Virus record (IMG/VR): IMGVR_UViG_3300046821_000076
Span: 1 to 64,000 of that record
Strand: one strand, 5' to 3'
From: a virus
DNA length: 64,000 nt
Shown here: one piece after another, positions 49,918-64,000 of the stretch
Layout: every line of letters begins with the position of its first letter
Numbering within the stretch: the stretch's first letter is position 1
Program-made: the position numbers and the translations under genes
The notes under the pieces: model-generated
Database searches by the model: none
What the model was told of the DNA's origin: nothing
What the model saw: only the letters and a program-made list of their open reading frames with translations

Positions 49918-49976
49918 AGTGTTGGGATTCAATTTAAAGCTTTAAATATAGAACTCACTTCGTTCGTACTTATTTG

Positions 49977-50048: not shown

Positions 50049-50089
50049 GCTGACACTGATTTATTAAACCAAACAGTATAGAGGTAGCT

Positions 50090-50407: not shown

Positions 50408-50424
50408 AAATATTGGAGCATACG

Positions 50425-50733
50425 ATGAAAAACATTCTTTTATATTACGTGGCTGTGCCTTGTACAGCTGAGATAATAGACTTAATCACACTCTTTTCTA
50501 TACAGACTAGAAAATATGATCCAATGCATAGAGATATACACGGATGTGGTTTGTTTATCTACAATGCACATTTAGAACTAGAAAGTGTAGATGATGATAC
50601 AGAATGGCTTCTTGAGAATAAAGATGCAATACAGGTATTAGCATTTTATGCTAATAAAGATTTTAATGGGCTATGTGCCTATTTAAACACTATCCCTGAA
50701 AGACCTTTTAATGTCTGCACTGACTCATTTTAA
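50425..50733 (+). CDS. Hypothetical protein
   Basis: GGAG RBS before ATG 50425. Confidence 0.7.
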   Translation: MKNILLYYVAVPCTAEIIDLITLFSIQTRKYDPMHRDIHGCGLFIYNAHLELESVDDDTEWLLENKDAIQVLAFYANKDFNGLCAYLNTIPERPFNVCTDSF

Positions 50734-50856
50734 ATAACTTAATTCTGTTGTGCTGTTGCTTGTTTTGTCTTCGCGTTCCGCAAACCCTCATAACTCATAG
50801 TTCTCCCTCTTGTCTCGTTATTGGGATTATCCCTAAATAAACCAAGGAATATTTAT

Positions 50857-51279
50857 ATGCGTATTTCAGTTAATCCAGAGTACTTTGATCTTATTCCATG
50901 CCGATCTATAGAATACGCTCAGGCTATAAACATTGATCAAATCAAAGGGATGGCTATTACAGCAGTAGTCTATAAAGAGTCTGATGAATCCCTACACATT
51001 CATTTAAATACTCATGTACTTGAAATGATTCATCATCAAGATTGCTGTGAAACAGTATATCTAGCAGATGTTGTAGGAGAGTTTGAAGACCTTATTGGAT
51101 ATCCGCTAATAGAGGTGTCTGAATCCACTGTAGATATAGGCAATGATGATATCTCATCTACTGCCTCCTACTATAACTTTAAAACACTTAAAGCCAGTGT
51201 ACAGCTACGATGGGTGGGTGAAAGTAACGGTTACTACTCAGAAACCATAGGCTGTTATCTATATCCTACAGGAGATTAA
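50857..51279 (+). CDS. Widespread phage hypothetical protein
   Basis: HHQDCCETVYL and RWVGESNGYYSE motifs; CCAAGGAA RBS. Confidence 0.8.
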   Translation: MRISVNPEYFDLIPCRSIEYAQAINIDQIKGMAITAVVYKESDESLHIHLNTHVLEMIHHQDCCETVYLADVVGEFEDLIGYPLIEVSESTVDIGNDDISSTASYYNFKTLKASVQLRWVGESNGYYSETIGCYLYPTGD

Positions 51280-51281
51280 CA

Positions 51282-51566
51282 ATGAGGCTTAAAAAGCTAT
51301 TTTCACACGAGTATTTAATTACTGAAGTTTCAACTGAAGTATGCGACTTAGCTTGCTTCTTAGATATTCCATTTAATATTGATGATCCAGCTGATCATTT
51401 CTACATTAAAGAACCTGATACAGACCTCTGTATCAAATCTTTCGAGTACAGACGTGATTCTGATGTACTGGTATCTTCCAAAATATTTTGCGAAATACTC
51501 ATGGACATTAAATCAGGCATGTCAGTCATAGAAGCCTACAACAAGCAAGGTTATACCTATACCTAA
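51282..51566 (+). CDS. Hypothetical protein
   Basis: AGGAG RBS. Confidence 0.7.
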   Translation: MRLKKLFSHEYLITEVSTEVCDLACFLDIPFNIDDPADHFYIKEPDTDLCIKSFEYRRDSDVLVSSKIFCEILMDIKSGMSVIEAYNKQGYTYT

Positions 51567-51580
51567 ACCAAGGAAATCAT

Positions 51581-52549
51581 ATGCACCTTTCACTTACAGA
51601 ACGTCAAGAGCTCATTGAAGAACAGCTATCCAAGAAGCATATCAATACTAAGGTATTGGACGAATTGACTAGCGATCTAGACATGATGGATAAGATCATT
51701 GAAGGTATTGAATTACTAGAGCTATGGTGCAATGCTCCAGGCGAATACGAGTCACAACAGGCTCGTAAAGATCACATCAAGGAGATGGCTTTAAAAGACA
51801 TTGTAGAAACGGTATACGTAACTACGTTGGCTTTAAAGAACACGACTACACTGGCTAATCTTATAGGCATCCTAGCACTTAAGCTTGAATTCGAGGAGTC
51901 ATACCAAGGATTCAAAGCAGCAGGGGAGATTATAGCTCTACTCTGTTATACAGATGTGTATGACTTAGATAAGCCAAAGAAATACGACAGTATTATCGTA
52001 AAGCCTAATTTTGATCTACCAGATGAAACCAAGGAATATATTGAGAATGCTCAGTATCTTCCTCCCTCTATCAGTGAGCCTAAATATCTAATACATAACC
52101 GTAGTAGTGGCTACAGAACTATTAAGCGAGACTCTCTCATTCTAGGTGGTGCTATTCACCATCATAACGAGGACATCTGCTTAGATGTCCTTAATCGTAT
52201 GAATGAGACAAAACTCACAATGAATCTAGATATGGTAAATATTCAGCAATTATATGAAGGAGACTTAGATGTTATTGAAGACTTTGAAGGGAGTGCTCTT
52301 GAGTATCAACGAGCAGTGTCACAACAGAAAGAGAACTGGGAGTTATTCCTCAGACGCTCAGAGCTTGCATACTCAATTGTAGAAGATAACCCATTCTATC
52401 TAACTCATAAGGTAGATAAACGTGGACGTATCTACTCACAAGGATATGCCATTAACGTACAAGGCAATAGCTTCCAAAAAGCGTGTATCGATCTAGTCAC
52501 TAAAGACTATATCGAAGTGCCTGATGATTACTTCACACCCAAGGGATAA
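51581..52549 (+). CDS. RNA polymerase II subunit 1 (N4 gp15-like)
   Basis: FYLTHKVDKRGRIYSQGY..N.QG T7-like motif; YLPP...P. Confidence 0.9.
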   Translation: MHLSLTERQELIEEQLSKKHINTKVLDELTSDLDMMDKIIEGIELLELWCNAPGEYESQQARKDHIKEMALKDIVETVYVTTLALKNTTTLANLIGILALKLEFEESYQGFKAAGEIIALLCYTDVYDLDKPKKYDSIIVKPNFDLPDETKEYIENAQYLPPSISEPKYLIHNRSSGYRTIKRDSLILGGAIHHHNEDICLDVLNRMNETKLTMNLDMVNIQQLYEGDLDVIEDFEGSALEYQRAVSQQKENWELFLRRSELAYSIVEDNPFYLTHKVDKRGRIYSQGYAINVQGNSFQKACIDLVTKDYIEVPDDYFTPKG

Positions 52550-52552
52550 ATC

Positions 52553-52900
52553 ATGAGTGACATTGAATTTGGATGTATAGGGGTAGACGTTGAAGGATAC
52601 TCCCAGCAGGGCTTACGTAGATTATTTGAAGAAAACGGTCTAGACAGTTTTATTGCTAACCATAGCTTCTTAGGTGAAGACGGCCCTTACAAAGAAGGTA
52701 GATACCTCCAAGCTGAATGTAGAGGTCTATTGCGCGAGACAACCTCTCTATATGTATTAAGTGGTTATATAAGCCACACGACAGACATTGAAACCTTCCT
52801 TCTGATATTAAGGACTGCCCTACTCGATATTACTGCAGCAAATGCATTAATAAATGAGATGTACTATCAAGGGTTAATTACCCCAAAGAGGGTAATATGA
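52553..52900 (+). CDS. Hypothetical protein
   Basis: Operonic ORF between the RNAP subunits. Confidence 0.7.
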   Translation: MSDIEFGCIGVDVEGYSQQGLRRLFEENGLDSFIANHSFLGEDGPYKEGRYLQAECRGLLRETTSLYVLSGYISHTTDIETFLLILRTALLDITAANALINEMYYQGLITPKRVI

Positions 52901-53238
52901 GACATATTAACTTTAGTGAGGTAGGTGTAGTTGTTAATTCATTTGAAGAGTTAGATGAGCTAGTTACTCTGTATAACGCTTTAGACATAAAGTTTGATAC
53001 AAACAACATCGAAAATGCTAAACGAGCTAATCTGCGTAATCGGTATATCCAAATTTCAAGGGCAGATATCCAAACAAGGTTAGGTAGCAATCCTGACGTA
53101 TCCATTAGCATATTAAGTTACCCAATTACATATGTAATGGACAGTTTAGACTTTGTTGTTGCATACCACCTACTCAAATCAAACCAAGAAGATGAGCTAA
53201 TAGCTTATTTAGACAAACACTGTAAGGAATTTAAATAA
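52897..53238 (+). CDS. Hypothetical protein
   Basis: ATGA overlap; GAGGG RBS. Confidence 0.7.
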   Translation: MRHINFSEVGVVVNSFEELDELVTLYNALDIKFDTNNIENAKRANLRNRYIQISRADIQTRLGSNPDVSISILSYPITYVMDSLDFVVAYHLLKSNQEDELIAYLDKHCKEFK

Positions 53239-53606
53239 TGGCTCTTATCACTATTATGTGCAAACCACGAAATGCTGCAGAACGTAAGTTACTTATTGAT
53301 GCAGGTATTATCACACCATCTCAGAAACATCCATGGGTGTTCTTAGAACGTCTACGCTTTAGTGACCGGGTTGATGGAGTATATACTTCAATGCTGTATT
53401 GGAATGTATGCACTTACTATAGCTACCGGACACGGAGCTTACGTGTAACTGTTAAACAGTTCATCAACATCTATAATTTTATCAGTTTAATACCAGAAGC
53501 TGGTATTACGCATATTGTTCCATTTGTAGAGAGTACCTCACGTAACCGTGCAGCACTTAAATATTACTACCGTGTGGCGGACCTTATAAATGTCAAGTAT
53601 CAATAG
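53238..53606 (+). CDS. Hypothetical protein
   Basis: TAATG overlap; AAGGAA RBS. Confidence 0.7.
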   Translation: MALITIMCKPRNAAERKLLIDAGIITPSQKHPWVFLERLRFSDRVDGVYTSMLYWNVCTYYSYRTRSLRVTVKQFINIYNFISLIPEAGITHIVPFVESTSRNRAALKYYYRVADLINVKYQ

Positions 53607-53940
53607 CCGCATTAGCTATATGTACATTGAGTACTCTACAGCTTTTCATATGAAATATAAGCGTCTATTCGCAGATACTATCTACGATAGTGATCGAATA
53701 GATTCCTGCCCTTTAGTTATTACATGGGCTGCAACAGATATGTGGGTAGAAGATGGTAATGCTAAATCCTTAGCAATCTCTGCTAAAACAACTAACTACA
53801 AAGATAGTTTTAAAGTAACTGAAGAATTCTTTGAAGATGCCTTACAAGCTTACTTCCTCTTCCCTGATACAAAAGAAGATGATGATGAAGACTCTAGCAA
53901 TCTACGCTTCGAATTCGTTAAAGCACTCTTAAACAAGTAA
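53590..53940 (+). CDS. Hypothetical protein
   Basis: Overlapping operon context. Confidence 0.65.
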   Translation: MSSINSRISYMYIEYSTAFHMKYKRLFADTIYDSDRIDSCPLVITWAATDMWVEDGNAKSLAISAKTTNYKDSFKVTEEFFEDALQAYFLFPDTKEDDDEDSSNLRFEFVKALLNK

Positions 53941-53972
53941 CCAACACACCTAAACAAACCAAGGAATAAACC

Positions 53973-55223
53973 ATGAAACACTTCTCAGCTTTAGACTACC
54001 TGTGTATTGATATTGCCAACAACGTTGGTAAACAAGATGGCTTCCTTGGAGACAAGGATACCTTTGAAAATCGTATCCAATGGGTTAAAGACAATGTCAA
54101 TGATCTACCTGAATACTACGTTAGAGCAGAAGATAAGTATCAATACATCAAAGGTGTATTAGCTTTAGCTGATGTCCTTGGAGGTAAGCCTACAGGTCAT
54201 ACTGTAGCTCTTGATGCAATCTGCTCAGGCATATCTATTATGTCTGCAATTACAGGTTGTCTCAAAGGCTGTAAGGCTACAGGACTTGTAGCCACAGGCT
54301 ACCGTCCTGATGCCTATACAGCCGTTACAGACGCTATGAACAGAATGCTATCTAAGCAAGGTATCCAAACAACAATCTCCCGTAAGGTAGCTAAGGAAGC
54401 AGTAATGCAAGCGAGCTATGGAAGTACTCGTAAACCAAAAGAAACTTTTGGCGAGAATACTCCTGAACTACGTGCATTTGAAGATGCTTGTATGGAGGTA
54501 GCCCCTGAAGCCTTTAAGCTTATGAGAGTATTAATTGATGCTTGGAATCCTAACGCTTTAGAACACTCTTGGTATATGCCTGATGCATTCAGCGTAAAGA
54601 TCAAAGTACTAGAACAGAAGGAAACCAAGATATACATCAAAGAATTGGACGATGCTTGTGTGACTATGATCACTAAAGAGAATAAACCAGTTAAACGTGG
54701 TGTATCTCTTTGCGCTAACATGGTTCACGCATGTGACTCGTACATACTACGCTCTATGGTACGTAGATGCTCATATGACGTATATAACATCACTGAGGTA
54801 CTAACAGTCATTAACAATGAATTAGTAGCTCCTACGAGCTATACAGTGATCCCTGATAAAATGGAAGAACTCCTAGCTCTCTACGCTGTTATGAATATTC
54901 CTGATACTCGTATCTTGGATTACATCACTCCATCTACAGTCAATGCAGTACCTAAGAAATACTTACTTCAATTGAAGAATACTATTTCTATGATGCTTCA
55001 TTACGGTAGCTTTGATATCCTTACTATTCACGACGCGTTTCGCTGTGCTCCATCTAATTGCAATGCAGTACGCTACTGGTATGCAGAGATTCTAGCTGAG
55101 CTTGCTGACTCTAATATCCTAGAGTGTATCTATGAACAAATCACAGGTACTCATCGTAAGTTTAGAAAAGCTGTACCAAACCTTTCATCTCTAATCCGTC
55201 AAGCAGATTACCAACTCTCATGA
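53973..55223 (+). CDS. RNA polymerase II subunit 2 (N4 gp16-like)
   Basis: LDAICSG (motif A), RKVAKEAVMQASYGS (motif B), ANMVHACD, TIHDAF (motif C). Confidence 0.92.
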   Translation: MKHFSALDYLCIDIANNVGKQDGFLGDKDTFENRIQWVKDNVNDLPEYYVRAEDKYQYIKGVLALADVLGGKPTGHTVALDAICSGISIMSAITGCLKGCKATGLVATGYRPDAYTAVTDAMNRMLSKQGIQTTISRKVAKEAVMQASYGSTRKPKETFGENTPELRAFEDACMEVAPEAFKLMRVLIDAWNPNALEHSWYMPDAFSVKIKVLEQKETKIYIKELDDACVTMITKENKPVKRGVSLCANMVHACDSYILRSMVRRCSYDVYNITEVLTVINNELVAPTSYTVIPDKMEELLALYAVMNIPDTRILDYITPSTVNAVPKKYLLQLKNTISMMLHYGSFDILTIHDAFRCAPSNCNAVRYWYAEILAELADSNILECIYEQITGTHRKFRKAVPNLSSLIRQADYQLS

Positions 55224-55258
55224 GTTGGTTTTCTCTTTAATACCATCAAGGAATAAAC

Positions 55259-55561
55259 ATGAATCTCGTACTTGAAAATTTACCTCTAACACTTGTATTT
55301 AAAAAGTCTAGGCAGAACTTAGATTTACTATCTCAGTACTACGGGGGAGTTTTTATTAAAGCCACTAACAGTAAAAATATAGCAATACCTATTCATGAAT
55401 TACTAGATGATGTTCCTAGTAGAACTCATGGGACTTTAATACTAGGTAATGCACAAACACCTCGTAAAGTATTTAATCATGCAAATCTTAAAGAAATTCT
55501 AATACGTAAAGATATTCATCCACTATTAGCTATAGAGTACATAAAGGAGATTCTTAAATGA
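55259..55561 (+). CDS. Hypothetical protein
   Basis: CAAGGAA RBS. Confidence 0.7.
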   Translation: MNLVLENLPLTLVFKKSRQNLDLLSQYYGGVFIKATNSKNIAIPIHELLDDVPSRTHGTLILGNAQTPRKVFNHANLKEILIRKDIHPLLAIEYIKEILK

Positions 55562-55887
55562 AAAGTCTTAATGTAATTAATTTTTATCTTACGAACCCTT
55601 TATATCAAGAACTAATTAGAGAGCATATATGGGCTAGAAGAATTCATAATCTCAACCGTAAACCAGCATATTTAAAACTGTGTTTATCCCTGCTGTATTC
55701 TAAAAGCTGTATCCCAGAATCCTACCAGAGATACAGCATAGCAACTCCTAACCCTGACGGTTTAGACCCACTACTATCAGAAGATCAAGTAATGCTACTC
55801 ATAGACTCTAGTAAACTTATTGGTTTACCTGAGTTGTCTTATCTTGCAGCAGCCTTACATCAAGAGAATAAACAGAACAAGCTCTGA
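55558..55887 (+). CDS. Hypothetical protein
   Basis: AAGGAG RBS; ATGA overlap. Confidence 0.7.
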   Translation: MKSLNVINFYLTNPLYQELIREHIWARRIHNLNRKPAYLKLCLSLLYSKSCIPESYQRYSIATPNPDGLDPLLSEDQVMLLIDSSKLIGLPELSYLAAALHQENKQNKL

Positions 55888-55934
55888 TGCTTGTTTTGTT
55901 GTTCTTCTTTCTTTTTTCTATGATTTAAACTAAT

Positions 55935-55957
55935 GTGCCCTTTGGGCACTTTTATGG
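55935..55957 (+). promoter_or_regulatory. C-TTT-G triloop hairpin
   Basis: GTGCCC-TTT-GGGCAC-TTTTATGG. Confidence 0.5.
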
Positions 55958-55993
55958 TCATATGATCACGTAACTTTCAAAGGACATAAGCAA

Positions 55994-56545
55994 ATGCTTA
56001 AACTTAAAGACATTCAAACTAAACCAGTAATCTACCAAGGGCTTGAAGTAGATGTACCTGCAGATACTAACTTCATGTGGTTACGTCATAACGATAAGAA
56101 GACAGTATTATGGGCTTCTGCAAAAAAACCTGTATGGCATCGTGAGCATAAATGCTATATCCCCCCTTCAGGTGCTACTCTCGTAGCTGTACTTGAACAT
56201 GCAGACCTTACTGTAGAACAAGTAAAAGATTCATTAGAGACTGATGAAAGCTTACCTACAGCTCAAGATTTAGAACAACTAGATGTAGTTGTAAACCTTG
56301 TTAAAAATCTACGTAGATTTGCAAACAGCTTAGAACGTAACGTAACTAAAGCAAGTACTAATCCTAGCCCTGAAAGCATTCAGTCACTTCTACAACATGT
56401 ATATGCTGACGAAGGTGAATTAGATAACTTCTATAATCATGCTATTGAAGAAGCAACAAAATACGGTATTGTTGCTGAGCAGGATGAAGACTCAGACGAA
56501 GATCATGAAGCATTGCTTAAATTCATTAATGCCATCCTTAAATAA
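55994..56545 (+). CDS. Hypothetical protein
   Basis: AAGGA RBS; 183 aa with acidic tail. Confidence 0.75.
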   Translation: MLKLKDIQTKPVIYQGLEVDVPADTNFMWLRHNDKKTVLWASAKKPVWHREHKCYIPPSGATLVAVLEHADLTVEQVKDSLETDESLPTAQDLEQLDVVVNLVKNLRRFANSLERNVTKASTNPSPESIQSLLQHVYADEGELDNFYNHAIEEATKYGIVAEQDEDSDEDHEALLKFINAILK

Positions 56546-56625
56546 TCTATTTGGAGGTACAGCTTATGCTGTACCTCTTAGAGGTGCTTATCAAACTGTT
56601 AACTTATACGTAGGAAAGACAAATC

Positions 56626-57336
56626 ATGGTATCGCATATTAAAGATATTACAGGTATTAAATTCGGATCGCTTACTGCTATTAAATTAGCTTATGTTAAG
56701 AACAGACGGACTTATTGGGAGTATAGCTGCGTATGCGGTAAAACTCACATTGCACGTGCTAGTACTGTAACTTATGAGGTAACTCGCAAAAACGATCCTG
56801 AATTACCATCATGCGGATGTATAGACGTAGCTAGAAAAACTAAACATGGTTTTCATAAAACTAATGATTTACACCCTGCCTATATAGCCTATAGAAATAT
56901 GATGGCTAGATGCTACAACCCTAATGACACTGGCTATAAACGGTATGGAGCAGTAGGGGTAACTGTAGCAGACTGTTGGAAAGGTAACCCTGAAGCTTTT
57001 GTTAAATGGTCTCTTGAAAATGGATGGGATAAAAACCTACACATTGATAAAGATATTAAATGTAAAGCCATGGGGATCTACCCTCATATATACAGTCCTG
57101 ATACCTGTACTTGGACTACTGCTAAACTTAATGTAGCAGAAGCCACGAATAGAACTAATTACGGCAAACGTCCTAACATCAAGCTAAGCCAAGAAGAAGT
57201 AGATGAGATTCTTCATCTCTACTCCAGTGGAGAGATTACTAACCAATCTGAGCTTGCTAGAATGTACGGAGTAACCCCAAGTTCTATATGTAGATTGATA
57301 CCACTAGAATTAAATAAACGTAACAAGCTGATTTAA
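56626..57336 (+). CDS. Free-standing HNH-type homing endonuclease with C-terminal HTH
   Basis: G.KFG.LT..CVCG; YRNMMARCYNP....YKRYG..GVTV; HIDKDI..YSPDTCTW; QSELARMYGVTPSSI. Confidence 0.85.
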   Translation: MVSHIKDITGIKFGSLTAIKLAYVKNRRTYWEYSCVCGKTHIARASTVTYEVTRKNDPELPSCGCIDVARKTKHGFHKTNDLHPAYIAYRNMMARCYNPNDTGYKRYGAVGVTVADCWKGNPEAFVKWSLENGWDKNLHIDKDIKCKAMGIYPHIYSPDTCTWTTAKLNVAEATNRTNYGKRPNIKLSQEEVDEILHLYSSGEITNQSELARMYGVTPSSICRLIPLELNKRNKLI

Positions 57337-57340
57337 GATA

Positions 57341-57592
57341 ATGATCGATATTCTTATCGTAGACACACCTATAGATAGATTAAATAAACTAGCTACTCTG
57401 TTTAAAGGTCATTGTTATTGGTTTAAGCATAATACAGGTAAACTACTAATAAGACAGTTCTCAGCCTTTAATAGCGATACATCCACATATTCCAGCTTAT
57501 CTGAAGATGATTTAGCAACACTAGAATTCTTACCTGACTTTGACACAAGATATACATACCTGTTATCGTTGTCTCTCGGTATCAATGCCTGA
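57341..57592 (+). CDS. Hypothetical protein
   Basis: Operonic ORF. Confidence 0.6.
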   Translation: MIDILIVDTPIDRLNKLATLFKGHCYWFKHNTGKLLIRQFSAFNSDTSTYSSLSEDDLATLEFLPDFDTRYTYLLSLSLGINA

Positions 57593-57785
57593 CTTAGTGG
57601 CTTAAGAGTTTATGACTCTTACCACCTATGCTATTTAATTCCTTGGATAGTATGTGGTGTAACTAGGTAGCCTAGGTTTAATTTCATTTACCTACTCCTT
57701 ACGCTTCCCTCCGTATGGCGAAAGAGGGAACCCATTCAGTTTATAGCCTATAACTCTACCCCAAGATGTTATAGGTTTTTTTTTT
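57593..57785 (+). ncRNA. Candidate structured RNA ending in a strong intrinsic terminator
   Basis: Four stem-loops, then CCTATAAC..GTTATAGG-T10 (57747-57785); no plus-strand ORF of 60 aa or more. Confidence 0.45.
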
Positions 57786-57805
57786 ATCTAAACCAAGGAA
57801 CAGTA

Positions 57806-58144
57806 ATGAAAACTATATACTTGCCTCCAACCTACATAATACCTAATGGTAGTGTGATTTCCTGGAGCTTTCCTGCTACAGATTTCGATAGTGATATTCA
57901 AAAACTTATCTCAAAGCTTGACCTTATACGCATAGAAGGTGGCAACCATAACTACGCATTTAATCTCTTACCTACCCACCATGCTCCATTAGTTTTCGCA
58001 TTTCACGAGACTAATTTGCTTATGCAGTTAGTGACGGGAGAATCAGATAGCTTTTACCTCAAAGCTGCTCTACGTGAATTTATGAATGCTTTTATAGTAT
58101 TCAATTCCAAAGGTGATCGAGTGTACCCAGAGGATATTATCTAA
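57806..58144 (+). CDS. Hypothetical protein
   Basis: CCAAGGAA RBS. Confidence 0.7.
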   Translation: MKTIYLPPTYIIPNGSVISWSFPATDFDSDIQKLISKLDLIRIEGGNHNYAFNLLPTHHAPLVFAFHETNLLMQLVTGESDSFYLKAALREFMNAFIVFNSKGDRVYPEDII

Positions 58145-58458
58145 TGCTTAAAGCGTATAAAACTGCGTGTAGACGAAGAAGCTTAAGAGTTGAATTAGTA
58201 TCTGATTTTTTAGATGCTAGAGCGCTTGAGGAACACCGTATCGAGTTAGACTGCGTAAGCTTATCACCGGAAATGTACATTTCACTATTCAGATCATCCA
58301 GATACCCTCTTGTTAATATAGACGAGTATTTCAATTATGCTGAGTTAATGGGCATTAATCTCGCTACAGATTCTAAAGCACGCGAAGAATCCTTCGCAAT
58401 ACTTTTAGAAATCTTAGAAACGAAATATGGCATTGAGTATGTTGAGGCTGAAAAGTAG
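58144..58458 (+). CDS. Hypothetical protein
   Basis: TAATG overlap; GAGG RBS. Confidence 0.7.
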   Translation: MLKAYKTACRRRSLRVELVSDFLDARALEEHRIELDCVSLSPEMYISLFRSSRYPLVNIDEYFNYAELMGINLATDSKAREESFAILLEILETKYGIEYVEAEK

Positions 58459-58482
58459 AGCACCCTTTGGGTGCTTTTGTGG
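58459..58482 (+). promoter_or_regulatory. C-TTT-G triloop hairpin
   Basis: AGCACCC-TTT-GGGTGCT-TTTGTGG. Confidence 0.5.
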
Positions 58483-58529
58483 GAACTATCTAGTTCTTTC
58501 AATTAACCTCACTACTTAGGAGATAGGCA

Positions 58530-58826
58530 ATGCTTATTTCAGATTCAGACACACAATCTTTAATTGCTGATGCTGTTAATGCAAAGCAACAAGGCGTGAA
58601 GCTCACTCAAGAAGATTTAGCATTGGCTTATGGTATTAGTACTACAAGTGTAAGACGTGTTCTTGCAGAGGCTAAACTGGTTGAGTTCAAATCTCATAAA
58701 TGCCAATGGGAAGATGACCTAATCCAATGTCTTAAATCCCATGGGTTAGACAGCCTGCAAACACTAAGTAGCTTTATCGCTAAGGCTAAACAAAATGAAC
58801 ACGCAATCCAATCAGCACAAGCTTAA
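58530..58826 (+). CDS. HTH DNA-binding protein
   Basis: LTQEDLALAYGISTTSVRRVL; AGGAG RBS. Confidence 0.75.
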   Translation: MLISDSDTQSLIADAVNAKQQGVKLTQEDLALAYGISTTSVRRVLAEAKLVEFKSHKCQWEDDLIQCLKSHGLDSLQTLSSFIAKAKQNEHAIQSAQA

Positions 58827-58971
58827 ACACAATCCGATGTATTCAACAGCTAATAGCTTAGATGAAGCATTAGCTGAAATTAAAACTCGATTACCTATCG
58901 AAAACAGTATTCAACTTAAAGCAGCTCTTATGCTGTACCACAACACGTTAATCAAGGAATTAAACAAATGA
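58795..58971 (+). CDS. 58-aa hypothetical protein (not in the ORF track)
   Basis: MNTQSNQHKLKHNPMYST...LMLYHNTLIKELNK; ATGA-coupled to the ATPase gene. Confidence 0.6.
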   Translation: MNTQSNQHKLKHNPMYSTANSLDEALAEIKTRLPIENSIQLKAALMLYHNTLIKELNK

Positions 58972-60023
58972 CTATTTCAAGCAACCGTGTAAACGTAACT
59001 CTTGCTGACGCTAAACCAATGGTTAAAGCGTTAATCGCATCAGGTATTCCTACTAACCTCTTATCTAGCCCTGGGCTTGGAAAGAGTGACTTGATCAAAG
59101 CAATCGCAAAAGAATTAAATCTAAAGTTGATTGATATTCGTCTATCTACTTGCGATCCTTGCGATCTATCAGGACTACCTAACATTCAGAATGGACGTTC
59201 TGTATGGAGTCCTAACCAAGCATTCCCATTACAAAACATGGATGAAGTACCTGAAGGTTACGAAGGCTGGTTACTTTTTCTTGATGAGATCACCAATGCT
59301 CCTATGGCAGTACAGGCAGCGTCATATCGTCTAATCCTAGATCGTGAAGTAGGACAGTACAAATTACATGACAAAGTATTCATCGCTTCAGCAGGTAATT
59401 TAATTACTGACGCTGCAGCAGTTACAGGTGAAATGTCTACAGCATTGAAATCTCGTATGGCTCACATCAACATTCAAGTATCAGCGGATGCTTGGTTAGA
59501 GTGGGCAGATAAACCAGAGAATAGTGTGCATTACGCAATTACTTCTTATATCCGTTTTAAACGTGAAACTGGTTTATATACATTCAATCCAGATGTAGAT
59601 GCAGATACTTATGCATGTCCTCGTTCATGGGGTATGGCAGCTAAGATCATTGATAACGTAGGTATTGATAACAACAGTATCCAAATGTTATTGGGTTCAG
59701 TGTTATCTATGGGTGTAGCTTTAGAATTCATGACATTCGTGAAGTACTACTCAAACTTACCTACATTAAAAGAAATCTTACGTGATCCGCATAATGCACG
59801 TATGCCTACAGAGCGTGGACCACTATTCGCACTATCAGGCTTAGTATCTACGTCTATGGATAAAGACAACGCAGGTACGTTATTGGAATACGTAAAACGT
59901 ATGCCTTCAGAAATGCAAGCAGCTACTGCTATTCCTGCATTCAAACGTACACCTGCAATCCTAACAGTAACTGCAGTACGTGAATGGTTACAGCCATACA
60001 TCGCTAAGTTACGTCAAGACTAA
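58968..60023 (+). CDS. MoxR-like AAA+ ATPase (N4 gp24-like)
   Basis: SSPGLGKS; IDIRLS; LFLDEI; SAGN; PRSW. Confidence 0.9.
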   Translation: MTISSNRVNVTLADAKPMVKALIASGIPTNLLSSPGLGKSDLIKAIAKELNLKLIDIRLSTCDPCDLSGLPNIQNGRSVWSPNQAFPLQNMDEVPEGYEGWLLFLDEITNAPMAVQAASYRLILDREVGQYKLHDKVFIASAGNLITDAAAVTGEMSTALKSRMAHINIQVSADAWLEWADKPENSVHYAITSYIRFKRETGLYTFNPDVDADTYACPRSWGMAAKIIDNVGIDNNSIQMLLGSVLSMGVALEFMTFVKYYSNLPTLKEILRDPHNARMPTERGPLFALSGLVSTSMDKDNAGTLLEYVKRMPSEMQAATAIPAFKRTPAILTVTAVREWLQPYIAKLRQD

Positions 60024-60036
60024 TTAAACATATAAA

Positions 60037-60062
60037 TACCTCCCTATTTAGGGAGGTTATTT
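60037..60062 (+). terminator. Hairpin/terminator
   Basis: ACCTCCCT-ATTT-AGGGAGGT. Confidence 0.6.
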
Positions 60063-60091
60063 ATCTAAGCACCTCATATACAGAGATTCTT

Positions 60092-61303
60092 ATGAAACGT
60101 ATTATTCCAACACAAGAACAGCAAGAAGTTCTATCAAGAACATTGACTCATATCCTTATTCGTCCTGATAACGCTTTCTACGCATCTCTAGCATTAGGTG
60201 CTGAAACTTATTGGTCAAACGATATTCCTACAGCAGCTACCAACGGTAAAGACCTTGTCTTTAATCCTCAGTGGTTTACCTCTTTAAACAAAGAAGAACG
60301 TATTGGGTTAATTCTACATGAGTTAATGCACATGGTTTATCACCATACTATTCGTATCGGTAATCGCGATCCTGAGCTATGGAACGTAGCAGGGGATCAT
60401 GTAATTAATACCGAGCTTAAGAAGAGTGGTTACACACTTCCTAAAGGAGGTTGTTGTGATATGCGTTTTCAGGGTATGGAAACAGAAGAGGTATACAACA
60501 TCCTCTGGGACGAAGAACAACAACAACCAGGAAAACACAAAAACAACATGCCTGACTTATTACTCCCAGGAGAAGATGATTCAGATTCTCAAGGTCAATC
60601 TGCAGGAGAAAAAAGCCAAGGAGGGGATAGTGAAGGTAATATCCCAACTCCTTCTAAAGAAGAGATTGAACAGCACATCAAAGAACAATTAGTTCAAGCT
60701 GTACAATCTGCTCAACTGAAAGGACAAGCAGGAAATATCCCTGGGAACATCGTACGAGATTTACAAAAGCTATTACAGCCTAAGTTACCTTGGAAACAGA
60801 TTCTACGTAAGTTTCTATTCTCTATGAATAAGACAGATTATTCATGGACTAAACCAAACAGACGATATATCCATCAAGGGATTATCTTACCTAGTCTTCA
60901 TGGAGAATCATTAGGGCAAATTGATTTTGCTATTGATACTTCAGGCTCTGTAAGCATAGCTGACTTCAACCGTTTCATCAGTGAGATTGCTTATGTATTT
61001 AAGCAGTTTAAACCAGACGGTATAGGTGTATATCAATTCGATCACATCCTACAGTCTACAGACAAGGTAGCTACTCTTAATGACTTCATGAAATTAGAAT
61101 TCAAAGGAGGAGGGGGTACTAATATCGAACCTGTACTTGAGTACTATAAAGCTCAAAGTAAAGGTAAAGCGTTAATTGTACTTACTGATGGATACTTCCA
61201 CCACACTGCTGAAATGAATCCAAACAAACCTGTTATCTGGCTTATCTACGATAACCCTAACTGGCAACCTCCATTTGGTAAAGCAGTCTACTTTGACAAC
61301 TAA
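60092..61303 (+). CDS. Metallopeptidase (HExxH) + vWA protein (N4 gp25-like)
   Basis: TAATNG; LHELMH; IDTSGS MIDAS; GGGGT; LTDGY. Confidence 0.9.
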   Translation: MKRIIPTQEQQEVLSRTLTHILIRPDNAFYASLALGAETYWSNDIPTAATNGKDLVFNPQWFTSLNKEERIGLILHELMHMVYHHTIRIGNRDPELWNVAGDHVINTELKKSGYTLPKGGCCDMRFQGMETEEVYNILWDEEQQQPGKHKNNMPDLLLPGEDDSDSQGQSAGEKSQGGDSEGNIPTPSKEEIEQHIKEQLVQAVQSAQLKGQAGNIPGNIVRDLQKLLQPKLPWKQILRKFLFSMNKTDYSWTKPNRRYIHQGIILPSLHGESLGQIDFAIDTSGSVSIADFNRFISEIAYVFKQFKPDGIGVYQFDHILQSTDKVATLNDFMKLEFKGGGGTNIEPVLEYYKAQSKGKALIVLTDGYFHHTAEMNPNKPVIWLIYDNPNWQPPFGKAVYFDN

Positions 61304-61312
61304 GGTACAACC

Positions 61313-61480
61313 ATGAATTGCAGTTATTGTAATAAACCTATCATCCTTGTACCTTCTGCCAAAGAACGAGCAGCCAAGGATACTTCAGGTAAAACCGCAA
61401 AGGATTATGAACGCCTGTTTACTCAACATGCTGAATGTATCTTGAAGAGACGTCACACCACCATAAACACTCAAGCCTAG
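61313..61480 (+). CDS. 55-aa Zn-finger-like protein (not in the ORF track)
   Basis: MNCSYCNKPIILVPSAKERA...HAEC; TAAGG RBS. Confidence 0.65.
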   Translation: MNCSYCNKPIILVPSAKERAAKDTSGKTAKDYERLFTQHAECILKRRHTTINTQA

Positions 61481-61520
61481 ATTACTAGGCTTACCTTCAA
61501 ATACACATCAAGGAACTACC

Positions 61521-62081
61521 ATGACACGTTTAACTAAAACCATCAAAACAGACATTAAAGGTCTTATCCGAGATAAGGCAATTAACCCTAGAGAGTTAGC
61601 CTTAGAAGCAAAGAAACAAGATTTCTTACTTAAAGCTTTTTGGGGACAAATCTCTAAATATGAATACCAAGCATGGAAAATGCTACCTGAAGCCTTATAC
61701 AAAGCTGTAACGAATACTACATACAGATTACATGTAAAAGATCGTGCTTTAGGGAGCATAGAGGCTCCCTTTAATGAATATATCGCATACCCTCGTAATA
61801 TGACTATGTGGATGACGTACGAAGTACTACCTCCGCACTTACAGCAAGAGTTTAAAGAACTCATTAAAGAAATTGATGTTCACGATGCTTATGTTGCAGA
61901 AGTAATGTCTAACTTAGACGTAACACTTAACTCGTGTACTACTGTTAAAAAGTTACGTGAGCTTTGGGTTAACGGTGCTGAGATCATTGATAAAGCATTA
62001 GGGCAATCCCAACAGTCACCTACAGTATATATGCCTATGGTAGCTATACAAACACTAGATGCATTAGTGCCTTTACCTTAA
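61521..62081 (+). CDS. Nmad5-like (nucleotide-modification-associated domain 5) protein
   Basis: MTRLTKTIK..I...A and LNSCTTVKKLRELW patterns. Confidence 0.6.
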   Translation: MTRLTKTIKTDIKGLIRDKAINPRELALEAKKQDFLLKAFWGQISKYEYQAWKMLPEALYKAVTNTTYRLHVKDRALGSIEAPFNEYIAYPRNMTMWMTYEVLPPHLQQEFKELIKEIDVHDAYVAEVMSNLDVTLNSCTTVKKLRELWVNGAEIIDKALGQSQQSPTVYMPMVAIQTLDALVPLP

Positions 62082-62091
62082 GGAGATTACC

Positions 62092-62439
62092 ATGGGTTAT
62101 CGTTCAGAACTGCACGCAGTAGTTGGACTCGTTGACTTACTTGAGTTTGAACGTCTGATCAAAGAAGCAGACCTAGCAGATTGTTTTGAAGAACACGACA
62201 AATCAGACTTAGCTGTAGAATTTCGAGCTTCACATTTAAAATGGTATGACGGATACGCTGATGTAGATAAGATCAATGAATTCTTTAATAACAGTAAATT
62301 CTCGATTTTATTACGTATAGGTGAAGAGTTTCCAGACAAAGAATACTACACAGGCAATTCTGATCTAGAACAGCTATTCAATCTATGTATAGATGTTGGT
62401 ACTGATATTAGCTGGTATGAAAACTGTCTTGAAGAATGA
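62092..62439 (+). CDS. Conserved phage hypothetical protein
   Basis: MGYRSE..., LKWYDGY.DV, LRIGEE..D.E; AAGGAG RBS. Confidence 0.75.
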   Translation: MGYRSELHAVVGLVDLLEFERLIKEADLADCFEEHDKSDLAVEFRASHLKWYDGYADVDKINEFFNNSKFSILLRIGEEFPDKEYYTGNSDLEQLFNLCIDVGTDISWYENCLEE

Positions 62440-62463
62440 GGGAACTTTGTTCCCTTTTTTGAT
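62439..62463 (+). promoter_or_regulatory. C-TTT-G triloop hairpin (promoter or terminator)
   Basis: AGGGAAC-TTT-GTTCCCT-TTTTTGAT. Confidence 0.5.
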
Positions 62464-62487
62464 GCCTTAACTTTTCAAGGAATAACC

Positions 62488-63651
62488 ATGCAACTAAACC
62501 AAGGACAACAGAAAGCTTTAGATACTCTATTAGCTGCTGTTATTGATCCAACGCAGAAGCTTATTACATTAAGTGGTCCTGCAGGTTCAGGTAAGACTAC
62601 TATCCTCAAACAGCTCGTTAAAGAGCTTAAAGACTTAGCAGTGTTAATGCCTGAGTACGTAACCACATGGCACTTTACTGCTACAACTAATAAAGCAGTA
62701 GCTGCATTATCTGATGCTATTGGGCCTATAGCAGAAGTTACTACTATCCATAGCTTGCTTGGTTTAATACCTCAACAAGGTAAGCTAAAAAAACGAAAAC
62801 CTGGAACAGTTCAACGTAAAAGTATTGTCGTTATTGACGAAGCTTCATATATCGGAGAAGAGCTTGCTGAATTCATTGTTCCAATTGTAGATCAAGTATC
62901 CTTAATTATCTTTGTAGGGGACAGATACCAACTCCCTCCAGTTAAGGATAAAATCTCAGATATCTTCGATCCTAAGATTATTCCTCAGATTGAGCTTACC
63001 CAAGTAATGCGACAAGCAGATGGCAATCCTATCCAAGAACTGTCATTAGCTTTACGTGATGTAGTCAAACACCACGGAGAACCTAATATCACATTAGATG
63101 ATGTTAATATCTCATGGCTTAACAGTGATGACTTTATCAAAGCATTCTGTAGTGACTGTATCATCTCAGCTTCAGGTACTGTACGTGCATTAGCATGGAC
63201 AAACCAAACAGCTCAACACTATAACGAACAGGCAGCTCTTGCATGTAACGGCAGAACTGAGTTTCATGCAGGAGATATTGTAGTAAACAATCATTACTTC
63301 AAGAGTAGTCAACAGTCTATTCCTACAGATGCGACAGTACATATTTATAGTACTTCGCCTTGGTATACCGAACATGGTAAAACCATGAGAAGTATAGCTA
63401 CTTCATATGGTGAGCTTACTGAGCTTCATAAAGACTCTACAGCTACTCCAGAACAAAGACTGTATTACTATCCTGATCTCCGCTATACATATGCATCTAC
63501 CATTAATAAAGCTCAAGGCAGTACTTACGATACTGTCTATATTGATCTTAATGATTTAGCTAAATGCTCTGATCGTGATCTACAGCTACGTTTATTATAT
63601 GTAGCTGTTTCAAGAGCACGCCATAAAGTAGTATTCACAGGTGACCTATGA
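62488..63651 (+). CDS. Dda/RecD-like SF1B DNA helicase (N4 gp37-like)
   Basis: GPAGSGKT; TATTNKA; VIDEAS; GDRYQLPPV; KAQGSTYD; YVAVSRAR. Confidence 0.92.
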   Translation: MQLNQGQQKALDTLLAAVIDPTQKLITLSGPAGSGKTTILKQLVKELKDLAVLMPEYVTTWHFTATTNKAVAALSDAIGPIAEVTTIHSLLGLIPQQGKLKKRKPGTVQRKSIVVIDEASYIGEELAEFIVPIVDQVSLIIFVGDRYQLPPVKDKISDIFDPKIIPQIELTQVMRQADGNPIQELSLALRDVVKHHGEPNITLDDVNISWLNSDDFIKAFCSDCIISASGTVRALAWTNQTAQHYNEQAALACNGRTEFHAGDIVVNNHYFKSSQQSIPTDATVHIYSTSPWYTEHGKTMRSIATSYGELTELHKDSTATPEQRLYYYPDLRYTYASTINKAQGSTYDTVYIDLNDLAKCSDRDLQLRLLYVAVSRARHKVVFTGDL

Positions 63652-64000
63652 CAACACGATATTCAGCTAAAGATAAACGTGATTTATCTATAGCACTTTT
63701 AAAAGCAATACAAGAACCTGCTGAAGGTATTCTAAAAAAAGTAGCTTTAGAGTTTTGTAATAGACAAGCTGCATTAGACCCTAATGGAATTATGCAATTT
63801 AGATATGCAGACACGTTATATAGATATCCAGATGACCCTCCACAGCGTTTAGCTAAAACATTGCATACATCTCTTCAAGAAGAGTTTTTCCCTCACTTCC
63901 AATACTACGTATTAGATATGAATAAGCTAGTCGCTAGTGTTCGGTATTTACTCTCTGACACTACAAGACTGGCTACTTGTCATGAAGACTTGTATGCTCT
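63648..64000 (+). CDS. Partial hypothetical protein (N4 gp38 position), truncated by the window edge
   Basis: ATGA overlap with the helicase stop; open to the end (MTTRYSAKDKRDL...). Confidence 0.65.
   Translation, partial: MTTRYSAKDKRDLSIALLKAIQEPAEGILKKVALEFCNRQAALDPNGIMQFRYADTLYRYPDDPPQRLAKTLHTSLQEEFFPHFQYYVLDMNKLVASVRYLLSDTTRLATCHEDLYA

What the first reader, a model, noticed from the sequence alone, without database searches (positions are those of the whole stretch)
57593..57785. Candidate phage small RNA complementary to the phage's own RBS motif
Seen: ~190 nt with several stems, mutually exclusive pairing (CCAC 57622 with GTGG 57597 or 57654) and a strong terminator. The loop region TTTAATTCCTTG (57634-57645) is the exact 12-nt complement of the AAA+ ATPase RBS CAAGGAATTAAA (58953-58964); TTCCTTGG complements the CCAAGGAA leaders of RNAP1, RNAP2 and the next gene. 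A second tract CTCCTT (57695-57700) is anti-AAGGAG. Inference: a trans-acting anti-Shine-Dalgarno sRNA or attenuator timing translation. Alternative: a minus-strand 18-aa micro-ORF (57631-57687, MKLNLGYLVTPHTIQGIK, AAGGAG RBS) with an antisense partner.
Basis: partly seen in the sequence, partly recalled or inferred. Interest (0 to 1): 0.7.

Follow-up and report, generated by a model that had tools for sequence, protein, structure and literature searches.

The report
Conserved structured RNA in N4-like phage
A stretch of about 200 bases between two genes of an N4-like phage folds into a conserved RNA shape that also forms the tail end of a much larger, unannotated RNA gene in Acinetobacter phages; its job is unknown, though it displays sequences that could cover ribosome-binding sites.

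Summary
The region is a real, conserved, plus-strand RNA structure (z -3.77; minus strand -1.44). It consists of a three-way junction (closing helix 57593-98/57662-67, hairpins A and B), hairpins C and D, and an intrinsic terminator (57745-57785). Four metagenomic relatives keep 57504-57743 at 90-100% identity while the flanks drop to 50-88% and flanking genes come and go. Covariance models link the core to the 3' domain of ORF-free, structured regions of 650-790 nt at the syntenic spot in Acinetobacter phages At2, XC38 and nACB1. In At2 and nACB1 these regions sit next to tRNA genes. On the 8-sequence alignment, 21 of 37 pairs covary. There is no Rfam, tRNA, GOLLD or ROOL match. The 12-nt complement to the ATPase ribosome-binding site is at chance level (76 of 200 shuffles) and is not co-maintained in relatives. 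Anti-Shine-Dalgarno hexamers, however, are rare on this strand and concentrated in this domain in both lineages. The minus-strand micro-ORF and the attenuator reading are not supported. Best reading: the short form of a new phage RNA family. A trans-acting anti-SD role is the leading but unproven mechanism.

The parts
57593..57667 (+). Three-way-junction core. Closing helix Pa is 57593-57598 paired with 57662-57667. It encloses hairpin A and hairpin B, with junction letters GGC and GUA.
   Evidence: This is the unconstrained MFE of the isolated core in 4 of 4 lineages. Helix 1: 6 pairs, 100% of cells paired, 3 pairs with changes on both sides.
57603..57621 (+). Hairpin A (7 bp, 57603-09 paired with 57615-21).
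   Evidence: Compensatory change in L128 (AAGAGG/CCTCTT) and a U-G pair in L131. Helix 2: 3 of 7 pairs changed on both sides.
57623..57659 (+). Hairpin B, with the 12-nt apical loop UUAAUUCCUUGG at 57635-57646.
   Evidence: helices 3-5. The loop core UCCUUGG is kept in 5 of 5 close sequences; L129 has a 2-nt deletion.
57673..57694 (+). Hairpin C (57673-77 paired with 57690-94).
   Evidence: Helix 6: 3 of 5 pairs changed on both sides, 97.5% of cells paired.
57695..57704 (+). Single-stranded linker CUCCUUACGC, which carries the second anti-SD hexamer.
   Evidence: Unpaired in the covariation-supported structure (structure). P(unpaired) is 0.12-0.20. L131 reads CUCAUU here.
57705..57730 (+). Hairpin D (57705-11 paired with 57724-30) with a 12-nt loop that contains UGGCGA.
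   Evidence: Helix 7: 5 of 7 pairs changed on both sides. The stem reads TTCCCT/AGGGAA in the window and At2, GATCC/GGATC in XC38 and AGTCC/GGACT in nACB1.
57745..57785 (+). Intrinsic terminator: a 10-bp stem, a 13-nt loop, then a run of 10 T.
   Evidence: Homologous terminators with different stems close the long forms in XC38, At2 and nACB1.
57504..57592 (+). The conserved last 28 codons of the 83-aa ORF. This is the upstream part of the conserved block and is covered by contigs from RNA libraries.
   Evidence: 95-97% identity per 40-nt bin. Codon-position changes are 1/0/5 in 28 codons. RNA-library contigs start at 57507, 57508 and 57521.
57540..57569 (+). Candidate host-type promoter: TTGACA, 18-nt spacer, TATCGT, with TG before the second hexamer.
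   Evidence: It is the only plus-strand site in 45000-64000 with a perfect first hexamer and TG. TTGACA is kept in the 4 relatives aligned there, whose second hexamer reads TATCTT. This is a consensus match only.
57341..57592 (+). 83-aa ORF directly upstream. Its stop codon abuts helix Pa.
   Evidence: Open, with in-frame indels only, in 4 of 4 sequences. No Pfam or PHROG family. No homologue in XC38, At2 or nACB1.
57793..57800 (+). CCAAGGAA leader of the next gene (57806-58144). It is complementary to loop B.
   Evidence: In L128 the same leader serves the homologue of the 58144 gene instead.
58953..58964 (+). ATPase ribosome-binding region CAAGGAATTAAA, the 12-nt complement of 57634-57645.

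Best explanation
The window comes from an N4-like (Schitoviridae) phage. Positions 57593-57785, probably extending upstream to about 57507-57577, encode a conserved plus-strand RNA module that folds on its own. The module is a three-way junction, two further hairpins and an intrinsic terminator.

It is the short form of an unclassified phage RNA family. In Acinetobacter N4-like phages At2, XC38 and nACB1 the same module is the 3' domain of an ORF-free structured region of 650-790 nt at the same place upstream of the gp24-like ATPase. In At2 and nACB1 that region directly follows tRNA genes.

Shown: structure beyond chance, strand, strong sequence conservation, homology to the long forms, covariation, one copy per genome, and independence from the flanking genes.

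Inferred: the module is released as a stable RNA that ends at the terminator. It would come either from the operon transcript or from the TTGACA-type promoter at 57540-57569. It would act in trans. My leading mechanism is that its exposed CU-rich tracts (loop B UUCCUUGG and linker CUCCUU here; ACCUCC and CUUCCUU in the Acinetobacter phages) pair with Shine-Dalgarno regions of phage or host mRNAs and damp or time their translation.

Sub-claim odds:
- real conserved RNA structure: 0.9
- homologous to the long-form 3' domain: 0.8
- discrete trans-acting RNA: 0.5
- anti-SD pairing is the mode of action: 0.3
For: Fold:
- The plus strand scores z -3.77 with 0 of 200 shuffles as good.
- The 291-nt version scores z -3.43.
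- The minus strand scores only z -1.44.

Conservation:
- Each 40-nt bin of 57504-57743 is 90-100% identical to L129, L132 and L131. Bins just downstream fall to 50-70%.
- The 149-column core alignment of 5 sequences has 96% mean column identity.

Module autonomy:
- The HNH gene (56595-57343) is present only in the window phage.
- Gene 57806-58144 is absent in L128.
- The neighbours on both sides have no homologues in the Acinetobacter phages, whereas the two genes before the ATPase do.

Homology:
- Model R1, built from 5 close sequences, finds At2 at 22.3 bits, E 4.7e-4, over 131 kb.
- Model R2, which adds At2, finds XC38 (20.0 bits, E 4.1e-4) and nACB1 (16.6 bits, E 3.7e-3) as the best hits of their loci.
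- Each hit lies directly before the terminator of an unannotated gap that holds no ORF above 68 aa in XC38 and At2.
- All 8 expected sequences, and nothing else, score at E <= 0.02 in 61.7 kb.

Covariation:
- 95.8% of cells are paired.
- 21 of 37 pairs have changes on both sides.
- 0 of 500 shuffles reach any of the five measures.
- Slid controls give 32-40% paired and 1-5 such pairs.

The isolated core folds to the same junction in 4 of 4 lineages. There is one copy per genome.

RNA libraries (weak hint): contigs from 4 runs of 4 studies lie on 57507-57755. Contigs of 2 studies begin at 57507/57508 with no loose end.

Anti-SD content:
- TTCCTT and CTCCTT occur 7 times on the plus strand of 46000-72334, 2 of them here.
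- 13 of 2615 windows of 193 nt hold 2 or more.
- In 13-kb loci of XC38, At2 and nACB1, the 3' domain holds 1 of the 3-4 TTCCTT. In XC38 and At2 it also holds 1 of the 2 ACCTCC; in nACB1 it holds 1 of the 4 CTCCTT.
- Loop B against 70 phage start regions gives a mean duplex energy of -9.56, against -7.01 +/- 0.78 for shuffles; 1 of 200 shuffles is as low.
Against: - No direct evidence shows a discrete RNA. The runs laid are contigs, which cannot show ends, strand or level, and DNA carry-over is possible. Because this block is the most conserved stretch, pooled strains could produce the same picture.
- The alignment used for covariation was fitted to the model's structure. It holds effectively four lineages, and the model E-values are rough.
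- The 12-nt complement is at chance level: 76 of 200 shuffles match it.
- The best single-target energy is reached by 26.5% of shuffles, and the ATPase site ranks 5th of 70.
- The pairing is not co-maintained. The L129 loop has a 2-nt deletion with an unchanged target, and the L132 target changed with an unchanged loop.
- The anti-SD tracts sit at different positions in the window clade and in the Acinetobacter phages, so the enrichment argument is post hoc.
- L131 has lost CUCCUU.
- The linker is no better than shuffles against start regions.
- Loop B is predicted to be mostly paired: P(unpaired) is 0.039.
- The 650-790 nt size of the long forms and their place beside tRNA genes are not what one expects of a simple base-pairing sRNA.
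Confidence: 0.5

Rival explanations
1. It is a structural, 'ornate' RNA that works through its folded shape rather than through anti-SD pairing: by binding a protein or the ribosome, or by self-assembly. The large phage RNAs found beside tRNA islands are the model. The window holds a minimal version of its conserved 3' core.
For: - The long forms are 650-790 nt, ORF-free and strongly structured: z -3.76 for XC38 and -4.12 for nACB1.
- RNAalifold on their 5' domains predicts 70 pairs, 18 of them with changes on both sides among 3 sequences.
- They directly follow tRNA genes in At2 and nACB1.
- The family has a conserved 3' domain and a variable or absent 5' domain. Passages on GOLLD describe the same split, a place near tRNA islands, and ribosome pull-down (bioRxiv 10.1101/2024.12.08.627333).
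- Junction and loop sequences (GUGGC, GUGUAAC, the UGGCGA loop) are conserved across lineages, which suggests a specific partner or tertiary contacts.
Against: - No Rfam family matches, GOLLD and ROOL included, even at E <= 10.
- The window phage has only about 200-280 nt and no tRNA gene in the window.
- Nothing here tests binding or assembly.
Confidence: 0.25
2. It is a cis-acting 3'-end module of the operon. The structure upstream of the terminator would enforce termination by the phage or host polymerase, or protect the upstream mRNA from 3' exonucleases. The product would have no trans function.
For: - In all four lineages the module sits immediately before a strong terminator at the end of a transcription unit.
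- The surrounding region holds other hairpin and terminator-like sites at unit borders.
- Passages of the LUZ7 study describe regulated read-through at N4-like phage terminators (PMC9163698).
Against: - A barrier or terminator needs stems, not 96% conserved loops and junctions, nor a three-way junction kept across distant phages.
- The upstream cargo differs in each lineage: an 83-aa ORF, tRNAs, or a large RNA domain.
Confidence: 0.15
3. It is a riboswitch or attenuator. The junction would sense a ligand or factor and decide between termination at 57785 and read-through into gene 57806.
For: - The layout resembles an aptamer followed by a terminator, then an RBS and a gene.
- The full-length MFE uses a different closing helix (57591-57600 with 57732-57741) that competes with helix Pa.
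Against: - The downstream gene is absent in L128 and unrelated in At2, XC38 and nACB1, while the module persists.
- By my reading of the sequences, the alternative closing helix has no counterpart in XC38 or nACB1.
- No conserved antiterminator pairing was found.
- No riboswitch family matches.
Confidence: 0.04
4. The conserved feature is the minus-strand 18-aa micro-ORF (57687-57631) with an AAGGAG leader. The plus-strand structure would be incidental or an antisense partner.
For: The ORF is open in 5 of 5 close sequences and has a well-spaced AAGGAG in 4 of them.
Against: - All differences among the 5 are amino-acid changes or indels (L to V, G to D, H to R, loss of K2, a shortened end). None is synonymous.
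- The leader is AATGAG in L131.
- In the same frame, XC38 and nACB1 have stops or no start.
- The minus-strand fold is unremarkable.
- G-U pairs in the conserved helices fit the plus strand only.
- No minus-strand promoter-like site lies nearby.
Confidence: 0.02

Closest known systems
GOLLD and ROOL large ornate RNAs of phages and prophages (Rfam families; Weinberg et al. 2017, PMC5737381, seen in the search listing and abstract; Kretsch et al. preprint 10.1101/2024.12.08.627333, passages read)
   Same: - Phage-encoded and non-coding.
- The long forms here are 650-790 nt, highly structured, and directly follow tRNA genes in At2 and nACB1.
- Like GOLLD, the family has a conserved 3' region and a variable 5' region.
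- Function is unknown.
   Different: - No match to either covariance model at E <= 10.
- The hosts and phage type differ (N4-like phages of Acinetobacter and relatives).
- The window phage carries only the 3' core and no tRNA gene in the window.
- Multimer formation is untested.
Terminator-ended base-pairing sRNAs that mask Shine-Dalgarno sites with CU-rich loops, for example prophage DicF or the C-rich-loop sRNAs of Firmicutes (recalled, not from a call)
   Same: - An intrinsic terminator with a long U tail preceded by an A/U-rich stretch.
- CU-rich tracts in a loop and a linker.
- Broad complementarity to the phage's own start regions.
   Different: - The seed is not conserved across the family.
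- The proposed target pairing is not co-maintained.
- The relatives are 3-4 times larger than typical sRNAs.
- No evidence bears on Hfq or a comparable chaperone.
Candidate sRNA1-3 of N4-like Pseudomonas phage LUZ7 (Putzeys et al. 2022, PMC9163698, passages read)
   Same: Non-coding transcripts under 250 nt in an N4-like phage, with terminators and possible processing. Function is unknown.
   Different: They lie between orf69 and orf70 and are made late, not upstream of the gp24-like ATPase. No sequence comparison was made here. The paper's supplementary tables were not available to me.
Stable RNAs C and D encoded in the tRNA gene cluster of phage T4 (recalled, not from a call)
   Same: Structured RNAs of unknown function that are not tRNAs, co-located and probably co-transcribed with phage tRNA genes, as in At2 and nACB1.
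   Different: They are much smaller than the long forms. No homology was tested. The window phage has no tRNA cluster at this locus.

Membership tests
GOLLD RNA | Match to the Rfam covariance model, which includes its universally conserved 3' region | tested here: not met
   No hit in the window at gathering score, in 57300-58000 at E <= 10, in L003+L004 at E <= 1, or in the XC38 and nACB1 gaps at E <= 10.
GOLLD RNA | Phage or prophage location next to tRNA genes | tested here: inconclusive
   Met for the long forms of At2 (tRNAs at L004 3864-4012) and nACB1 (four tRNAs at L005 3715-4042). Not met for the window (0 tRNA genes) or for XC38 at this spot.
GOLLD RNA | Homo-oligomeric cage assembly | not testable with these tools
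   This needs purified RNA and cryo-EM or light scattering.
ROOL RNA | Match to the Rfam covariance model | tested here: not met
   Same searches as for GOLLD.
tRNA / tmRNA / tRNA-like element | Cloverleaf or tmRNA architecture detectable by ARAGORN or the Rfam tRNA clan | tested here: not met
   ARAGORN finds 0 genes in the window and 0 in 57300-57900 at a relaxed threshold. Rfam gives no tRNA hit in the element.
Transcription-terminating riboswitch or attenuator | Association with one conserved downstream gene or pathway | tested here: not met
   Gene 57806-58144 is absent in L128. It has no homologue in phage records or in XC38, At2 or nACB1.
Transcription-terminating riboswitch or attenuator | Conserved mutually exclusive pairing between the sensor and the terminator | tested here: inconclusive
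   An alternative closing helix exists in the window clade. I saw no counterpart in XC38 or nACB1 and no antiterminator. This was not tested formally.
Base-pairing anti-SD sRNA | Discrete transcript with its own 5' end and a terminator 3' end | tested here: inconclusive
   The terminator is present. A promoter-like site lies at 57540-57569. RNA-library contigs cover 57507-57755, but contigs cannot show ends.
Base-pairing anti-SD sRNA | Conserved accessible seed | tested here: inconclusive
   UCCUUGG is kept in 5 of 5 close sequences. It is absent from loop B of XC38 and nACB1, which carry CU tracts elsewhere. Predicted P(unpaired) is 0.039.
Base-pairing anti-SD sRNA | Seed-target complementarity maintained or compensated in relatives | tested here: not met
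   For the ATPase site, of the 4 relatives that carry both sides, L129 and L132 each break the 12-nt pairing on one side without compensation.
Group I intron carrying a homing endonuclease (considered because of the adjacent HNH gene) | Intron core structure interrupting a host gene, with the endonuclease ORF inside it | tested here: not met
   No Rfam intron hit. The HNH gene is missing from this site in L128, L129 and L132, while the RNA is kept. The flanking ORFs are complete genes.

The most novel reading that the evidence does not exclude
The window element is the minimal, universally kept core of a previously undescribed class of large ornate phage RNAs. In cultured Acinetobacter N4-like phages these are 650-790 nt and are made together with tRNAs. 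The core would be the functional heart of the class, for example a ribosome- or mRNA-directed decoy that displays anti-Shine-Dalgarno tracts, or a self-assembling RNA like ROOL and GOLLD. The phage would use it to retune host translation.
Probability: 0.25. Interest if true: 0.8.

Novelty: new member of a known kind. Interest (0 to 1): 0.6.

Why it matters
Large and small structured RNAs of phages are few, and most have no known function. Here a conserved RNA module with covariation support occurs in three cultured, sequenced Acinetobacter phages, where the 650-790 nt region is simply left unannotated. It also occurs in a short form in an uncultured clade whose sequence turned up in freshwater, wastewater and sediment runs.

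That makes the family experimentally tractable through deletion, RNA-seq and structure probing. The natural short/long pair points to the part that matters. If the CU-rich tracts act on Shine-Dalgarno sites, this would be a phage-encoded global translation regulator in a group known so far for its three-polymerase transcription programme.

Tried and rejected
DNA and protein similarity:
- DNA similarity of 57300-58200 to 50,697 phage records gave no match.
- tblastn of the downstream 112-aa protein gave no match.
- Short-word blastn of the long forms against the whole 72,334-base genome gave only chance 12-15-mers. The 5' domain motifs are absent, so the window phage has no long form elsewhere.
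- MAFFT alone misaligned the four lineages. I replaced that alignment with model-guided ones.

Collection scans:
- IMG/VR pattern scans returned only XC38 itself or nothing.
- A looser 15-base pattern returned at least 120 stretches, which I took for chance and did not follow.
- The genome-contig scan gave 10 stretches, about what chance predicts. None was confirmed by model R2 at the pattern site.
- The ATPase-upstream loci of three other N4-like phages (Salmonella TR2, Vibrio pVa5, Pseudomonas Littlefix) are densely coding and give no R2 hit better than E 0.1. Only these 3 of the 846 records were examined.

Sequencing runs: the four RNA-library runs gave no cover on 56900-57506 or 57756-58500, apart from one 56-nt piece with loose ends on both sides. 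One X22 contig is an inverted duplicate joined at 57651; I left it uninterpreted. No DNA run was laid.

Other ideas:
- Group I intron: rejected (see the membership test).
- Resemblance of 57657-57702 to the 3' terminal region of 16S rRNA: this was recalled only. The stretch includes the 3' strand of helix Pa, which covaries, and Rfam rRNA models gave no hit, so I treat it as chance.
- CsrA-type GGA-loop sponge: by eye only two GGA are present. I did not pursue it.

Tool and script problems:
- Supplementary files of PMC9163698 (lists of LUZ7 start and stop sites) were not available and might show a comparable element.
- Searches gave zeros because my script read alignment files over the loci. 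I corrected this.
Full report
**Context.** The window belongs to a 72,334-base virus record of the N4-like type.
- It has a 4486-aa ORF on the minus strand at 17522-30982.
- It has an RNAP2-type polymerase subunit at 53973-55223 and a gp24-like AAA ATPase at 58968-60023.
- The closest GenBank relatives by ATPase are three Acinetobacter N4-like phages: XC38 at 52%, At2 at 50% and nACB1 at 45.5% identity. All 846 matching records are below 60%.
- The finding lies between an 83-aa ORF (57341-57592) and a 112-aa ORF (57806-58144), both on the plus strand.

**Observation.**
- As RNA, the plus strand folds far better than shuffles (z -3.77, 0 of 200). The minus strand does not (z -1.44).
- No tRNA or tmRNA and no Rfam family matches.
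- The 12-nt exact complement to the ATPase start region is real but unremarkable on its own. 76 of 200 shuffled elements find a complement of 12 nt or more on the plus strand of the rightward-transcribed 26 kb.

**Close relatives.** A metagenome scan with the ATPase returned six loci at 77-100% protein identity. Four of them (L128, L129, L131, L132) contain the element. Three points follow.
- First, 57504-57743 is a block of 90-100% identity in every 40-nt bin, while the genes downstream drop to 50-70%.
- Second, the flanks are fluid. The HNH endonuclease gene at 56595-57343 is an insertion found only in the window phage; copies sit elsewhere in L129 and L130. Gene 57806-58144 is missing in L128.
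- Third, the 83-aa ORF stays open with in-frame indels only. Its first 54 aligned codons change equally at all three positions (17/19/19), while its last 28 codons are nearly invariant (1/0/5). The conserved block therefore starts inside the end of this ORF.

**Distant relatives.** At the syntenic spot, 0.9-1.2 kb upstream of the ATPase and before homologues of the two small genes 58530 and 58795, each Acinetobacter phage has an unannotated stretch that ends in a terminator:
- XC38: L003 4456-5121.
- At2: L004 3814-4811, of which 3864-4012 are two unannotated tRNAs.
- nACB1: L005 4043-4789, after four tRNAs.

In XC38 and At2 these stretches hold no ORF above 68 aa. They are strongly structured: z -3.76 for XC38 and -4.12 for nACB1. 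Their 5' domains share 70 predicted pairs, 18 with changes on both sides.

A covariance model built from the five close sequences, using a structure I defined, found the 3' end of the At2 region (22.3 bits, E 4.7e-4). After At2 was added, the model found XC38 and nACB1 at the corresponding places as the top hits of their loci (20.0 and 16.6 bits). Each genome has one copy. The rest of the long form is not present anywhere in the window phage's genome. Three other N4-like phages have dense coding sequence there and no hit.

**Structure.** The isolated core (75-103 nt) folds in all four lineages into the same three-way junction without constraints.
- The closing helix Pa is CUUAGU/ACUAGG in the window, ACUUGU/ACGAGU in At2, GCUUGU/ACAAGU in XC38 and UCACGU/ACGUGA in nACB1.
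- On the 8-sequence model-guided alignment, 95.8% of cells are paired and 21 of 37 pairs changed on both sides.
- 0 of 500 column shuffles reach the observed values. Sliding the partners by 1-3 columns leaves 32-40% paired and 1-5 such pairs.
- Caveats: the alignment is fitted to the structure, the five close sequences are nearly identical, and the E-values are rough.
- In the window, the helix that closes the whole element in the MFE (57591-57600 with 57732-57741) competes with Pa. I saw no counterpart of it in XC38 or nACB1, so I take Pa as the conserved fold.

**Expression.** One search found 24 runs from 13 studies that hold parts of 57350-58150. I laid four RNA-library runs from four studies. 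Their contigs lie on 57507-57755:
- X20: 57507-57702.
- X22: 57508-57680, 57508-57606 and 57651-57730.
- X23: 57521-57719.
- X19: 57628-57755.

Contigs of two studies start at 57507/57508 without loose ends, while the DNA contigs L128, L129 and L132 run on across that place. This is a weak hint only. Contigs do not show ends or strand, DNA may be present, and the conserved block would pool reads of several strains.

A consensus-type promoter (TTGACA, 18 nt, TATCGT, preceded by TG) lies at 57540-57569. It is the only plus-strand site of that quality in 45000-64000, a region otherwise depleted of such sites (32 found against 67.8 expected).

**The anti-SD idea.**

Points for it:
- TTCCTT and CTCCTT are rare on the plus strand of the rightward region (7 in 26 kb), and 2 lie here.
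- Only 13 of 2615 windows of 193 nt hold two.
- Both sit in unpaired parts of the comparative structure: the apical loop of hairpin B and the linker between hairpins C and D.
- The 3' domains of the three Acinetobacter phages also hold two rare CU-rich hexamers each, at other positions.
- Loop B pairs with the 70 predicted phage start regions better on average than 199 of 200 shuffles.

Points against it:
- The best single target is not special, and the ATPase site ranks 5th.
- The linker is no better than shuffles.
- Loop B is predicted to be mostly closed by weak pairs.
- L131 lost CUCCUU.
- The 12-nt pairing is broken on one side, without compensation, in L129 and in L132.

The tracts look like a recurrent property of the family. 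The specific ATPase target does not hold up.

**Other readings.**
- An attenuator for the next gene is unlikely, because that gene is dispensable and not conserved.
- The minus-strand micro-ORF is open in the five close sequences but differs only by amino-acid changes and indels. It loses its leader in L131, and XC38 and nACB1 have no counterpart.
- A group I intron linked to the HNH gene is excluded by the HNH-free relatives.
- A purely cis-acting 3'-end module does not explain the conserved loops and junctions.
- A shape-based function like that of the large ornate phage RNAs remains a serious rival. Passages on GOLLD and ROOL describe phage RNAs near tRNA islands, and GOLLD has a conserved 3' region and a variable 5' region. 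Neither model matches here, however.

**Literature.**
- The full-text search for N4-like, non-coding RNA and phage found 9 papers. The relevant one (PMC9163698, passages read) reports sRNA candidates at another locus of LUZ7.
- Of the 9 papers that mention XC38, I read only the nACB1 paper (PMC10057805, passages). It reports four tRNAs and 92.1% coding density but holds no occurrence of 'non-coding' or 'intergenic'.
- In these two searches I found no description of this RNA. Subscription-only papers, such as the XC38 description, were not searchable.

**Verdict.** This is a real, conserved RNA structure. It is best described as the short form of a new phage RNA family whose long form lies unannotated in three cultured Acinetobacter phages. 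The mechanism is open. Trans-acting anti-SD pairing is my leading guess at about 0.3, and a shape-based role comes next.

Noticed in passing
window 56595-57343 (gene 56626-57336): This HNH-type homing endonuclease gene (PHROG 374, E 3e-41) is an insertion specific to the window phage. In L128, L129 and L132, window 56591 joins directly to 57344. The insertion replaced the start codon and AGAGG leader of the 83-aa ORF. Copies at 92% identity sit elsewhere in L129 (8222-8938) and L130 (4863-5578).
   Followed up: partly
L003 4456-5121; L004 3814-4811; L005 4043-4789: Published genomes of Acinetobacter phages XC38, At2 and nACB1 each hold an unannotated, strongly structured stretch that looks like a large RNA gene. 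The XC38 and At2 stretches hold no ORF above 68 aa. At2 also has two unannotated tRNA genes (Rfam tRNA hits at L004 3864-3933 and 3941-4012).
   Followed up: partly
window 50034-50042, 55938-55946, 58463-58471: Three GC-rich hairpins with a TTT loop (core CCCTTTGGG; 3 found against 0.08 expected) are each followed by TTTT and lie about 35-50 nt before an RBS and ATG. They could be N4-type hairpin promoters or unit-border terminators.
   Followed up: partly
window 49662, 50842, 51568, 53959, 57793 and others: CCAAGGAA is over-represented (9 against 1.18 expected). On the plus strand it mostly sits as a leader before start codons of early- or middle-region genes. At2 uses CCAAGGAAC before the gene that follows its large RNA.
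   Followed up: partly
window 57341-57504: The first two thirds of the 83-aa ORF change equally at all three codon positions among four relatives (17/19/19 in 54 codons) yet keep the frame. The last 28 codons are almost invariant. This could be relaxed or diversifying selection on a small protein, or a constraint that is not on the protein.
   Followed up: partly
window 45000-64000: Sigma-70-type promoter-like sites are depleted (32 found against 67.8 +/- 9.1 in shuffles), while terminator-like sites are enriched (22 against 10.1).
   Followed up: no
window 57806-58144 versus L128 985-1075: The 112-aa gene after the terminator is absent in L128. There the CCAAGGA leader is fused to the homologue of the 58144 gene. 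The 112-aa gene has no homologue in 50,697 phage records.
   Followed up: partly
window 17522-30982 (minus strand): The ORF I take to be the virion RNA polymerase (by its size and the N4-like context; not searched here) is 4486 aa. That is longer than the 3333 aa reported for nACB1 (PMC10057805, passage).
   Followed up: no
window 57651 (run X22, record 6): One RNA-library contig is an inverted duplicate of 57651-57704/57730 joined at 57651, as a snap-back cDNA would give. I left it uninterpreted.
   Followed up: no
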